Notes under the pieces: model-generated
Databases searched by the model: none
What the model saw: the letters and a program-made list of their open reading frames with translations, nothing else
What the model was told of the DNA's origin: nothing
Translations under genes and position numbers: made by a program
Shown: positions 4,790 through 61,910 of the stretch, in pieces
Numbering within the stretch: the stretch's first letter is position 1
How the letters are laid out: each line of letters opens with the position of its first letter
NCBI GenBank assembly: GCA_020137815.1
Contig: CM035355.1
Location: 2,232,001 to 2,296,000 of the forward strand
DNA length: 64,000 bases
Reading direction: 5' to 3'
Source of the DNA: Hormiphora californensis
Lineage: Eukaryota; Animalia; Ctenophora

Positions 4790-7700
4790 ATGAAGTGTCT
4801 GAGAGGGTTTCACTGCTACAATCGGGGTTTCTCCCGTCAACTCTCAACTGCAGCAGCACCTCAATCCGCAAACAACCCTACCTCCGCAAACAACCCTACC
4901 TCCGCAAACAACTCGAAACCTCCACAACAAGAACTAATCAACACTGCTCTCCGCGATCTAGTCGCTCGGAATTTCCCCTCATCTCAACTATGTTTCGCGT
5001 ATGGCTCCAAAATACTCCACCAAACAAACAACCTACCCACGGATGACACTATGACAGATCTGATGTTTGTACCCCGGAACTCCCAGGCCTGGCACTGAGG
5101 AGAACTTTCTACAGAATTCCAAACACTACTCTGGGTTAATGAGGTTTATCGGACCGGGAAATGTGGCAGTCTTTTCAAGAGGCTGGGAGAGCGTACTGTG
5201 TGTTTAACCCGTATGTTGAGGTGGAGGGAACATTACTGAAGTATGGTGTGATCAGTGAACATCATCTCTATAACGGTGAGTTAGAGTCCCTTTCCCCCGA
5301 GTTAAATCCCCTCCTCTGAGTTAAATCCCCCCAGTCTCCTCTGAGTTAAAGGCCCCCCTCCATATCTTAGTCCTATCTGTTACCATCGCTTCGTTACCCT
5401 TATACCCCCCCCCCCCCTCCGATCAGATCTAGAGAAATGGGACACTCTGTACGTGACCCAACTAACGCATTGCCCACTACTGTCAATCTATTCCTAAATT
5501 GTTGATCCTATCTGTTACAGTTTCCTCTTTACCCAATTATCTCTCCCCCGATCAGATCTTGAGAAATGGGACACTCTGTACGTGGCGGGTCGGCTACACA
5601 AACCTGTCATGATTCTCCAGCAGGATCCAACATTCAGACTGGAGTACATCAAACGCAATCTCAGGTACATTTTTAACATATTAAGTATATTACCGGGCAA
5701 AACCATTTCCCGTAATCGGGGTCCGACTGTGCATATTATAACCTCCGCATACACGTGTGTGGACATAATTGTTTGGTAAGAGCCTGGTGTGTGTATTAAA
5801 AAACCATCTGTCAAAGCGGCGTTTTGATAGTCTCAACTAAAACACAAGGATTGTTTCTATTCCAAATTACTGATATAAAAAGGCGATTGAACCAATTAGT
5901 ATGGCCAGTATTGGCTGGGCCATTTGATTGGTGCACTGGACGGGCAAAAGAGACGGGGATCCCCGCTTTGAGAGCTTGTTGTGCTGATGCAACTGAAGAG
6001 GCCTCGTGAACCAGAATTGGGATGTACTGACTCGACGGAGAACAGATATCTGTATTCAATTTGGTGAAGCGTTCGTCTTGAGCTCGGAAGGTGTGAACCA
6101 TGATGGTGGCTCGAAATTTTACCATTTTGGGTTTGGAATTGTCAATCAATCCTTTCTTTTTGTTACTGGCTAATTAAAACGTAGTTTTACAAAGAATGAT
6201 GTAAAACACCTAAAAAATTATTCAGAATTCAGAAACACAATCCTATAAAAAGTTTCTGGTGACCAATGGAATCCATTTTGAAAGCTTTGTATAGTACCCA
6301 CTAGTTGATAGAATCCAATCACTACATTGCTCTGCCGAACTATCACAGAGTACAGTGTGAGCTACACAATCAATATCCTGTATCAGCTATTTGAAGTAGG
6401 GCTCCCTACCCTGTATCAATCAGTCTACTGTTTCTCAACCTCAGGGCAGGAGATACACAGTTCAAACACTCCAACGGTCCATTGTCTAATTTAGTGTGAG
6501 CAATGTCTGTAGAATGACGTGTGCCGTCACCCCTCATAATGACGTCATCACTCAATATGACGTCATTCTCCTTGTCTGACGAGGTGTGGTGATCCATTTC
6601 TGGGGTGGTGAGCTCCTCTGGATCAATTAGGGTGTCAATCATGTCAAGAGTTAGGAGCCGCAGTCGCCGTATTTCCCCTCTTAATTCCTCGTTTTCTCTC
6701 TGAAAAAAATTTAAGGTGTTGAAGTGTAGATGATGGCACACCCAATTCTTTGTTTACTGAAGTTCTTGGCAAAACCCACATCCATCACTGCGCTGGCAAG
6801 CGCAAAGGTGACCATCCCCTCCCCCCAGCCGCGCATGCCAGAGTGCAGTAATAACTTTTTTCAGTTTTTAGCCAAAAATGGCATTTTGCGACGCCCATAG
6901 GGAGGCCCCCATTGCACCGATTGGTCTGAAATTTGGTATACAGTGTCACATAGTCTAGATCTACTGTAGTTTAAAAGGGCAAGTCTCTATCTCTTTTAAT
7001 TTTAGAGATATGGCATCGTGAAAAAAGCAATAAATGTCCCGGGTCTATGTATCTATCTATGTATCTATGTATCTATGGATAGACGCTGTTTTTACCAAAT
7101 TTATAATCATTTTTGAGAGAAAACGACATAAGATAGACACTTCTCGTTTGTTGCATTCGAAAGATAATCGTTCAAATTGTGTAGACGAATAGTTTTCATG
7201 TTCTAGGTCCAACCAGAACGTCTTAACAAACTGTCATAAAGATAAGAGTTTTTTCAAATCAACCAAATTTCTGTGAGCTCAATTTACACCCTGAAGTCGG
7301 CTTCTGATTGAAAAACGGAGACCGCACTTACGAAAGATAATCGTCTATACTTTCAGAAACTATATCGCGAATTTTTGAAACTCTATTGCTAAGGGTCTCA
7401 AATCGCGTCTGAAGTGTTAAGACTGTATGAAAATAGATATGACGATAATGCGTTTTTCGCCAGAGCGACCTCAAATCTTGTCCAATCGATTTCAAACTTG
7501 GTCAGCATCTTTATCTAGATGAGCCTGATAATAATATATCCCTATCTTGACGTTATAACCTCGTGACGTCACGCTATGACGTCATAATGACGTCAAAATT
7601 GAAATTTTCGTATTTTAGCGATTCCTGACGGTCTTTACACGTCCAGACATGTCTTACATTGTATTTCACATCAGAAAATACCAAAAATATACCCAATTAT

Positions 7701-60200: not shown

Positions 60201-61910
60201 AACTTCTCAGGAATGTTTATGTTGAGGTGATCACCCACTATCGTCTTGAAATCTGAGGAAGAGGTCATGTAGCCAGTATAGGTTTCAAAGCTAAACTGGC
60301 GGTGGATAAAAGAAGGAAAACGAAAATCATTTTTGGACTATAATCATACACTTCAGCCCCTAAACCAGCCAAAAATAGCTGTCTCTTCAGACACTTTTAA
60401 CCGTGTTGATCAAGTATACCTCTGCTGTTGATACCGTTCTTTTTCCCACTATTCATGTCATGATATATCTTGTGGAGCCACCTATTGTATCGGATCAGTG
60501 TAGCGAATCTTGCCTCAGTTCTCAGGTGTTCCTCAATCCACGTTTTAATCCGTTCCAGGTGGACCGCAGTTCCTGTAGATTCAGGGGTGGGGGATGTGGT
60601 ACAGGGGGTGATATGTGGAAGTCATGTGAGGGGGTGGCTGTCATTGGCCTGAACATATTATCATTTCTTTCGGTCAGAGCATTGTCTTACTGGCTTGGAA
60701 GGGGTGGCATATGAGTGGTGGCAAGGTCTTACAAGTCCCATCTTACCAGTCATGTGGAGAATGGATAGCTCAAAGGTGTTGCCATATCGCAGCTCTGCAA
60801 TCTTTTCTCCCTCAGGAACTTTGATTAGGTAGGAGGTGCCACCGAAACACTCGCACTCATTCTCCGCAAGATGGGGGTGATCTCCAAAGTTTCCCTGGGG
60901 TGGAGAAAGTGGTAAAGTTACTACCCTAGCCCCTGGGGTGGAGATAGTGATAGACAGAACACGATAATAATTGAGTGAAGTATTACCTGCCGTGTGGCGT
61001 GGGGAATTCTGGGGGTTTCCTGGATCTCAAAATCCCTGATCATCGACAGTTCAACTGAAAATATAATGTCGGTAACTACATTGCTTTGGCTAATCCCTGA
61101 TCAAATAGATCGAGGCTTGGCTTGTTCAAAAAGCACCTCGTGCGATGATAATACTGTTTATATTGATCAACTGCGATGTGAGCCACACAATGTTCAATGC
61201 TTTTACTCACTGTGAAAAACAAAGGAAGACTTAGGTTTAGTGAAAGTTAGTCTTAGTAGATCATCATCAAAGAGAAGGTTTAGTTGCTCCATCTTTACAG
61301 ACTCTCCTCCAACTACCCCACTTGTTACGTGGTACCTCTTGATTGGGATCTGTATGGCGGAACAAAATTACAGAGTCAACAAAGATACAGAGCTCTGCAG
61401 AGTCAAGACAACACGTTTCTTGTGGCCAACTGTTCATGGCGCCGATCTGAGTACACTGTTTTGAGTATCAACACGGGGTCCGTCTGGTGCCGCAAGACAG
61501 GTATCCAATGTGAACCACTATAATAAGCTTCTAAAGACTAATTAAACACCACAAAATCAATCAACAAAGACTCTTCAGTGCAGAGAGGGCAGCCTTATAG
61601 CACTTACCATGGTACCAGGACTATCCTGTAGAGTGTTTCCCAGTGATAGGGGTCGTGGAGGGGGCGGTGGCGGGAGACTCCCTCGTCCCTTGAAAAAATA
61701 GGGAGTCAAGTTAGGAATGAGTCACACTACTGCACTAATTATGACCATATGTAGGTACTCTGTCTGGCGGCACTGACCCGATCTGAGCGGAATCTGGCTA
61801 CGCCATTCAGTGATTACTTGAGGGAGATAGATACTATCATTTTATCACTAGAAACATACCATGGGCGCAGAGGCTGTTCTGGTCGTTCCAGCGTGTTTAC
61901 CAATCGTCAT
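45271..61910 (-). CDS. PLCG: Phosphoinositide phospholipase C gamma (PH-EF-X-spPH-SH2-SH2-SH3-like-spPH-Y-C2), over 20 exons; both ends approximate, several indels
   Basis: X box [45 protein letters not shown]; two SH2 ([22 protein letters not shown]); Y box [30 protein letters not shown]2 ending [20 protein letters not shown] at ~46034. Confidence 0.92.
47022..47201. repeat. 9 x 20-bp minisatellite, each unit with a CACGTG E-box (60-bp higher-order period)
   Basis: AGTCACGTGACTTTACTAAC / AGTCACGTGTCTTGACTAAC; CACGTG at 47022-47182 every 20 bp, plus 47196. Confidence 0.95.
47383..47390 (+). promoter_or_regulatory. Candidate TATA box of the nested PIM-like kinase
   Basis: TTATAAAA upstream of a pyrimidine-rich leader and GCCACCATG start at 47649. 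Confidence 0.5.
47649..50994 (+). CDS. PIM-family Ser/Thr kinase, 5 exons (47649-47815, 48517-48601, 48783-48914, 49043-49135, 50578-50994), nested antisense in a PLC-gamma intron
   Basis: [68 protein letters not shown]. Confidence 0.92.
49174..50466. mobile_element. Kolobok-like palindromic MITE, ~600-bp TIRs, TTAA TSD
   Basis: TTAA|GGGTACACCTGGCG...CGCCAGGTGTACCC|TTAA; arms near-identical around a ~80-bp spacer. Confidence 0.88.
56273..57289. mobile_element. ~1-kb palindromic MITE (arms ~480 bp) flanked by TA
   Basis: TA|GTTAGGG...CCCTAAC|TA; 56297-56759 mirrors 56801-57267 almost perfectly. Confidence 0.85.
57769..57952. mobile_element. 184-bp hairpin-rich MITE flanked by TA
   Basis: TIR TAAACTCTTGCCA/TGGCAAGAGTTTA; internal hairpins TTTATCCGCCAGTGGCGGATAAA and TTCTCCCAGCGGCGCGCTGGGAGAA. 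Confidence 0.75.

What the first reader, a model, noticed from the sequence alone, without database searches (positions are those of the whole stretch)
5371..60945. Tandem duplications systematically straddle exon-intron junctions, stacking decoy splice sites in five genes
Seen: many of the minisatellites in this window contain a real splice junction plus a few exon bases. Cases are TAMM41 acceptor (5419/5548, x2), GTF3C3 acceptors (15396 x3, 17989/18017 x2, 25566 x9), GTF3C3 donor (22711 x7), TPP1 donor (29730 x6), cytochrome b561 donor (35762 x3), and PLC-gamma acceptors (46021-46210 x3, ~60893/60931 x2). The unit sequences are unrelated, so this is not one repeat family. The reading frame is preserved only if the outermost site is used. 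Copies carry substitutions, which argues against simple read stutter. Inference: either a mutational process targets splice junctions (for example R-loop or pausing-linked slippage), or the splicing machinery ignores or steps through identical decoy sites. It would also be a route to intron growth or gain. Best candidate for an undescribed system here.
Basis: partly seen in the sequence, partly recalled or inferred. Interest (0 to 1): 0.82.

Follow-up and report, generated by a model that had tools for sequence, protein, structure and literature searches.

The report
Comb-jelly splice-junction "mirage" repeats
In what is likely a comb-jelly genome, nine short stretches that cross an exon edge have been copied into the neighbouring intron, a repeat type already known from lancelets ("mirages") and a human clotting-factor gene; they are likely harmless duplication by-products that splicing likely ignores.

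Summary
The nine duplications are in the sequence. Each crosses a modelled splice junction in one of five genes and leaves 25 extra splice sites in total. Short-read contigs hold the two arrays I could check, and a second sample has a further donor-crossing duplication. This is not an undescribed system: it matches amphioxus "mirages" and the human F7 intron-7 repeat, and this scan noted it before in other animals and in this genome.

Enrichment is modest. Per base there is none (8 of 125 junctions, 6.4%, against 6.9% of intron bases). Per event it is 3.6-fold against all introns and about 2-fold against short introns. Duplications that stay inside the intron crowd exon edges as strongly (10 of 25 within 30 bp; 3.4 expected). 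The pattern is therefore edge-crowding, not targeting of the junction itself.

Two sub-claims fail: 4 of 25 decoys keep an open frame, and two arrays have identical copies. No RNA covered these genes, so splice-site use is inferred. Likely mechanism: ordinary local duplication, retained near exons, with the exon-adjacent site used. Open question: whether recombination between divergent alleles seeds these repeats at exon edges.

The parts
5419..5584 (+). TAMM41 acceptor duplication, offset 129 nt. Decoy exon start 5427, live 5556; 29 exon nt shared with one synonymous change.
   Evidence: decoy is in frame but has a stop
15396..15510 (+). GTF3C3 acceptor array, 41 nt x 2.8. Decoys 15419 and 15460, live 15501; 10 exon nt per unit.
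17973..18028 (+). Old GTF3C3 acceptor duplication, offset 28 nt. Decoy 17999, live 18027; only 2 exon nt shared (weak case).
   Evidence: not detected as junction-crossing by the ungapped scan
22711..22954 (+). GTF3C3 donor array, 36 nt x 6.8, identical copies. Live donor after 22716, six decoys, each giving an in-frame stop.
   Evidence: X5 contig across about 2.8 units with 19 differences
25566..25954 (+). GTF3C3 acceptor array, about 43 nt x 8.9, 35 exon nt per unit. Live 25920; six intact decoys, three of them in frame without a stop; two copies have an altered junction.
   Evidence: unit junction in X1, X5, X6 contigs, depth 0 at 25605 in X7
26080..26116 (+). Single copy in the window; run X5 carries a duplication of this stretch (28 exon + 9 intron nt, plus 8 extra letters) across the donor at 26107/26108.
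   Evidence: table 5c; an X6 contig of the same sample runs through 26017-26149 without it
29730..29858 (-). TPP1 donor array, 24 nt x 5.5, 9 exon nt per unit. Live donor after 29850, five decoys, all behind a stop.
35762..35838 (-). Cytochrome b561 donor array, 32 nt x 2.4, 14 exon nt per unit. Live donor after 35825, one identical decoy, one degenerate copy.
46021..46260 (-). Old PLC-gamma-like acceptor triplication. Live 46034; decoys 46102 (frameshift) and 46202 (in frame, no stop in the modelled part). The end of this exon is uncertain.
   Evidence: exon assigned by frame and recalled motif only (no PDB match)
60893..60949 (-). PLC-gamma-like acceptor duplication, offset 38 nt, in a 92-nt intron. 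Live 60894, decoy 60932; only 2 exon nt shared (weak case).

Best explanation
These are 'mirage' minisatellites: short duplications that copy an exon edge with its splice signal into the intron, likely made by ordinary slippage or break repair and likely harmless because splicing would keep using the copy next to the intact exon. Shown: the copies exist, are unrelated to one another, vary between samples, and belong to a wider crowding of short duplications within about 30-60 bp of exon edges. Inferred steps: (1) a 24-129 nt stretch is duplicated locally; (2) copies wholly in an exon, or that divert splicing, are purged; (3) survivors expand or shrink by slippage or unequal exchange, with the end copy diverging most; (4) exon-flanking intron sequence is older and shielded from deletion and transposon turnover, and a live copy under selection keeps the pair recognisable for longer, which would give the 2-4-fold excess; (5) the spliceosome picks by position and exon context, not by site strength, and nonsense-mediated decay would clear most leaks.
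For: Same anatomy as amphioxus mirages: unrelated units, both boundary types, variable copy number, divergent end copies (PMC3087553 passages; PMC3902484 passage). Human F7 IVS7 uses only the exon-adjacent donor among identical ones (PMC1557585 abstract and Discussion). Homology fits the exon-adjacent site for TPP1 and GTF3C3 25920. 12 of 25 decoys score at or above the live site on a window-trained matrix (7 ties, 5 higher), so strength cannot explain the choice. 21 of 25 decoys give a stop or frameshift (plus arithmetic for 17999). Intron-only duplications crowd edges as much: 10 of 25 within 30 bp against 3.4 expected, P=0.001. The excess at junctions falls to 1.6-2.2-fold against short introns or the 100-bp zone. 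Polymorphism in contigs.
Against: A residual excess remains in most settings (8 of 20 against 3.8 expected within 100 bp, P=0.022). Far decoys differ from live copies at 6 of 129 exon-side and 37 of 193 intron-side columns, a 4-fold gap where simple decay predicts 2-fold (P=0.037). The retention step is not measured. No RNA shows which site is used. Four decoys are open in frame and would escape decay if used.
Confidence: 0.66

Rival explanations
1. Exon-edge-directed mutation. In a very polymorphic species exons are islands of homology between alleles. Repair or recombination that starts in the exon and runs into a divergent intron flank re-anneals out of register and leaves a copy of the exon edge joined to another allele's intron. 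R-loops or polymerase pausing would be alternative triggers.
For: Event-level excess up to 4-fold. Exon-side identity exceeds intron-side identity 4-fold, and the one TAMM41 exon difference is synonymous. Allelic contigs differ strongly in intron-containing stretches (26 letters and 7 gap letters in 297; 19 and 7 in 167; deletions of 83-158 nt). Several units hold about 8 nt found in neither flank (15396, 22711, the X5 copy). A ctenophore of the family this window likely belongs to has about 3.2% heterozygosity with many intronic indels (PMC8527503 passages).
Against: Nine events only, in a window chosen for the trait. C-rich acceptor tracts likely mutate faster anyway. The asymmetry is marginal (P=0.037), and detection favours intact exon parts. 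Intron-only duplications crowd the same zone. No decoy intron part was matched to a known other allele.
Confidence: 0.2
2. No real enrichment: a compact, repeat-rich genome with short introns (median 185 nt) puts many duplications on junctions by chance, and this window was picked for a cluster.
For: Per base, 6.4% of junctions against 6.9% of intron bases are inside a local duplication (P=0.63). In introns up to 600 nt the excess is 1.65-2.1-fold with P 0.04-0.17. Two of nine cases share only 2 exon bases.
Against: The per-base background is inflated by the arrays themselves. Event-level P against all introns is 0.0003-0.03. A further junction-crossing duplication appears in another sample.
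Confidence: 0.09
3. The decoys are functional: they tune expression by leaky splicing into decay, give in-frame insertions, or act as ratchet points for stepwise splicing.
For: Decoys are as strong as live sites. Four are open in frame. Three acceptor cases read AG|GT, as a ratchet point would.
Against: Units are unrelated, variable between samples and, for 25566, not seen as multi-copy in organism B (a hole proves little). Unit lengths are mostly below the shortest modelled intron (71 nt). Published mirages do not disturb splicing.
Confidence: 0.04
4. Assembly or read stutter.
For: The assembly has likely indel errors in four genes and a homopolymer-rich junk stretch. Two arrays have identical copies. 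Seven arrays were not seen individually in reads.
Against: The 25566 unit junction stands in contigs of two samples, and 22711 units stand in X5 with 19 differences. Four cases are old and diverged. Exact copy numbers remain unverified.
Confidence: 0.01

Closest known systems
Amphioxus 'mirage' minisatellites (Adh3, globins BflGb6 and BflGb9, troponin C, PGBD5); PMC3087553 and PMC3902484, passages read; Canestro 2002 (PMC117041) not held, known here only through these papers
   Same: Tandem copies of donor or acceptor boundaries; unrelated units of 10-160 bp; variable copy number between haplotypes; end copies diverge; many copies keep AG/GT; proposed as a route to intron gain.
   Different: Here in a likely ctenophore, at 8-9 of 125 junctions, with an enrichment estimate and a matching crowd of intron-only duplications. 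Correct splicing was shown by RT-PCR in amphioxus and is not shown here.
Human F7 intron 7 37-bp VNTR (PMC1557585; abstract and Discussion read)
   Same: First unit spans the exon-intron boundary and identical downstream donors follow; close match to the 36-nt 22711 array.
   Different: Single donor locus in a mammal, with mutational proof that the most upstream site wins. Six of the nine cases here are acceptors, which that scanning model does not cover.
Intron gain by tandem genomic duplication (Rogers model, as cited in PMC3087553; PMC3265369 seen as search listing only)
   Same: Local duplication that carries splice signals.
   Different: No new intron position is formed in any of the nine cases; the existing intron only grows by 28-351 nt.

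Membership tests
mirage minisatellite | Repeat unit spans an exon-intron boundary | tested here: met
   boundaries come from hand-built models, two anchored by homology; two cases share only 2 exon nt
mirage minisatellite | Head-to-tail tandem copies lying in the intron | tested here: met
   five clean arrays in TRF; four older, diverged duplications
mirage minisatellite | Copies retain AG/GT signals | tested here: met
   25 decoys, 12 scoring at or above the live site
mirage minisatellite | Length or sequence variation between haplotypes | tested here: met
   variant units and an extra donor duplication in X1 and X5 contigs; exact copy numbers cannot be read from contigs
mirage minisatellite | Normal splicing is not disturbed | not testable with these tools
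   no RNA holder listed; the guessed RNA run X11 covered none of the exons
mirage minisatellite | Somatic instability (Adh3) | not testable with these tools
   needs single-molecule data from one animal
recursive (ratchet-point) splicing | AG|GT point and splice-able steps (definition recalled) | tested here: not met
   3 of 6 acceptor cases lack GT after AG; unit steps of 24-43 nt are below the shortest modelled intron of 71 nt
intron gain by duplication | New intron position inside former exon sequence | tested here: not met
   no exonic duplication at a junction among 4 exonic clusters; TPP1 and GTF3C3 exons join without extra residues

The most novel reading that the evidence does not exclude
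In hyper-polymorphic animals, exons act as islands of homology, and repair between divergent alleles seeds tandem duplications at exon edges genome-wide. About one junction in fifteen then carries full-strength decoys, which a likely ctenophore with short introns still resolves by exon context. Mirages would be a recurrent, heterozygosity-driven route of intron growth, and evidence that exon-context site choice is as old as animals.
Probability: 0.2. Interest if true: 0.62.

Novelty: new member of a known kind. Interest (0 to 1): 0.3.

Why it matters
As it stands it extends a little-known repeat type to (likely) ctenophores and gives nine natural tests of splice-site choice, including six acceptor cases that the F7 model does not cover. 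My seven literature searches found no ctenophore case and no genome-wide survey; the library lacks most subscription journals. If an allele-driven, edge-directed mechanism were shown, it would explain the origin that PMC3087553 calls unclear and link heterozygosity to intron growth. Practically, such repeats can mislead gene callers and short-read assembly.

Tried and rejected
No whole genome is held, so no genome-wide test was possible. No RNA holder listed, and X11 (RNA by guess) covered only repeats; this is no evidence on expression. The scan of metagenome contigs with P0001 found no relative. The PLC SH2-exon homolog search found nothing, and the last PLC exon had no PDB match (weak PLC-epsilon match for the previous exon, E 0.82). 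The per-base enrichment test showed none but is biased by the arrays' own length, so event-level tests were added. Five uncertain junctions (three PLC, two EXD2) of 130 modelled were dropped, and nine microsatellite, satellite or junk stretches were masked before counting. Transposons in long introns were not masked. A different 'partial-copy' signature of junction-crossing arrays was looked for and is not clearly separate from intron-only repeats. The absence of the 25566 array in organism B is suggested by low depth only and is not counted as shown. 40534-41988 was suspected to be a palindrome and is not. PMC6823432 was irrelevant, and PMC117041 is not held. No supplements were read; the mirage alignments in those of PMC3087553 may bear on the exon-versus-intron identity comparison.
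Full report
Setting. No genome was held, so all counts are for this window. An exon at 25921-26106 matched one protein, P0001 (98%, EukProt 'sb/3463246/'). 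I recall that name style as Pleurobrachia gene models. With nested genes and short introns this makes a cydippid ctenophore likely; the species is not determined. I built ten gene models by hand from sequence, tblastn and Pfam. Gene A, MAK16, GTF3C3, TPP1, cytochrome b561 and a PIM-like kinase read open. TAMM41 exon 1, PEX6, EXD2 and the PLC model contain frameshifts, likely assembly indels or a missed exon. I kept 125 of 130 junctions; the 65 modelled introns have median 185 nt and minimum 71 nt. No junction is RNA-verified.

Observation. All nine cases are present. Five are clean arrays: 15396 (41 nt x 2.8), 22711 (36 x 6.8), 25566 (about 43 x 8.9), 29730 (24 x 5.5) and 35762 (32 x 2.4). Four are older pairs or triplets: 5419/5548, 17989/18017, 46021-46260 and 60893/60931. 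The exon share of a unit runs from 2 to 35 nt. Homology puts the live site next to the intact exon where testable: TPP1 exons 2 and 3 map to nearly contiguous residues of 3edy_A, and P0001 joins residue 447 to 448 with one copy of the 25566 exon part. Of 25 decoys, 21 give a stop or frameshift and 4 are open in frame (the 17999 decoy by arithmetic). The 22711 and 35762 copies are identical. On a matrix trained on the other 116 junctions, 12 of 25 decoys score at or above the live site.

Are they real? Contigs of five coded runs were laid on 17450-31100 and 22256-26190. The 25566 unit junction is present in X1 (depth 163.6), X5 (910.9) and X6 (1590 at 25778), and has depth 0 at 25605 in X7 (organism B). 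An X5 contig spans about 2.8 units of the 22711 array with 19 differences, and an X1 contig carries three variants in its first units. X1 may be the assembly's own sample, so X5/X6 (one sample) is the independent support. X5 also shows a duplication absent from the window: 26080-26116 plus 8 letters, crossing the donor of the same exon. An X6 contig passes through that stretch without it. Depths of contigs are not copy numbers, tables were cut (96 and 6 joints not shown), and seven arrays were not seen individually.

Is it more than chance? That background is inflated by the arrays themselves. Counting each array once: 8 of 26 events cross a junction against 2.2 expected over all introns (3.6-fold, P=0.0009); 6 of 15 against 2.9 in introns up to 600 nt (P=0.048); 8 of 20 against 3.8 within 100 bp of a junction (P=0.022). 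Over 18 settings the ratio is 1.6-4.1 and P is 0.0003-0.17. Shuffled sequence gave no false events at scores 12 and 14 in three shuffles. The 25 duplications that do not cross a junction crowd exon edges too: 10 of 25 within 30 bp against 3.4 expected (P=0.001), and 12 within 50 bp against 5.4. The robust pattern is therefore crowding at exon edges, with at most about a 2-fold extra for crossing. The window was chosen for this trait, so all P values are optimistic.

Mechanism. Most likely, ordinary local duplications survive when they leave one complete copy next to the exon. They persist near exons because that sequence is constrained, and they are then amplified as minisatellites (inferred). 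A pair in which one copy is under selection stays recognisable longer, which would add up to about 2-fold. Since decoys are as strong as live sites, choice must rest on position or exon context, with decay as a backstop (inferred; no RNA). For donors this is the F7 rule. For acceptors, simple first-AG scanning would pick the decoy, so exon context is implied. Stepwise splicing is unlikely: units are mostly shorter than any modelled intron, and half the acceptor cases lack AG|GT. One result leans towards a rival: far decoys differ from live copies at 6 of 129 exon-side and 37 of 193 intron-side columns (a cruder alignment). That is 4-fold where simple decay gives 2-fold (P=0.037). With strongly divergent allelic introns and high heterozygosity in a ctenophore of the likely family (PMC8527503 passages), an inter-allelic origin at the edge of exon homology remains possible. 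Fast mutation of C-rich tracts explains the gap equally well.

Comparison with what is known. The scan's earlier notes (unchecked AI notes) pointed me to the term 'mirage', and I checked the papers. PMC3087553 (passages) describes minisatellite-like duplications of intron-exon boundaries in amphioxus: both boundary types, 10-160 bp units, haplotype length variation, divergent end copies, undisturbed splicing by RT-PCR, an unclear mechanism of origin, and an intron-gain model. PMC3902484 (one passage) adds PGBD5 and troponin C. PMC1557585 (abstract and Discussion) shows that identical pseudo-donors of the human F7 37-bp VNTR are functional but unused. Four defining features are met here and two could not be tested. 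Seven searches found no ctenophore case or genome-wide survey in the held library.

Verdict. Real, known in kind, new for this lineage as far as my searches reach, and modestly enriched as part of a wider edge-crowding. Novelty: new member of a known kind. Interest 0.3. The bold reading (allele-driven, edge-directed duplication) gets probability 0.2 and would deserve about 0.6.

Noticed in passing
window 22295-22330 and 22484-22559: GTF3C3 exon 22337-22475 is flanked by inverted copies of one 33-nt repeat family (predicted duplex -34.1 kcal/mol, no shuffle control). The family has high depth and many different flanks in all four runs, and alleles with an extra copy at 22299-22331 exist. It could loop out or circularise the exon.
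   Followed up: partly
window 40534-41990: About 1.4 kb made almost only of homopolymer runs, likely a low-quality consensus stretch; not a palindrome.
   Followed up: partly
window 4791-5275, 31472-31520, 34228-34874, 54153-54938: Frameshifts inside otherwise intact TAMM41, EXD2, PEX6 and PLC exons, likely assembly indels.
   Followed up: partly
window 13732-14925 (-), 20072-20392 (+), 47652-50994 (+): Nested genes: a receptor-like ORF (by eye; no Pfam hit) and a small secreted-looking ORF in GTF3C3 introns, and a five-exon PIM-like kinase inside the 5.5-kb last modelled PLC intron.
   Followed up: partly
window 53452-53528 (-): A 77-nt PLC intron consists almost wholly of an 11-nt tandem repeat; it could record intron growth or origin by duplication.
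   Followed up: no
window 23268-24257: X1, X5 and X6 contigs show 887-946 nt skip and go-back joints in this GTF3C3 intron, a polymorphic insertion or rearrangement.
   Followed up: no
window 22622-22716 and 23083-23266: Two in-frame GTF3C3 exons of my model are absent from the relative's protein P0001: a gene-model gap or alternative splicing.
   Followed up: no
window 56290-57250: About 960-nt palindromic element (87% ungapped arm identity) in a PLC intron, likely a foldback transposon.
   Followed up: partly
window 8045-10160: 2-kb satellite of a 10-nt unit with higher-order periods inside a TAMM41 intron.
   Followed up: no
window 47022-47189 and 48298-48442 (+): Arrays whose units hold a branch-point-like motif (consensus recalled): 20 nt x 8.4 upstream of the PIM-like kinase and 14 nt x 10.5 before its second exon.
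   Followed up: no
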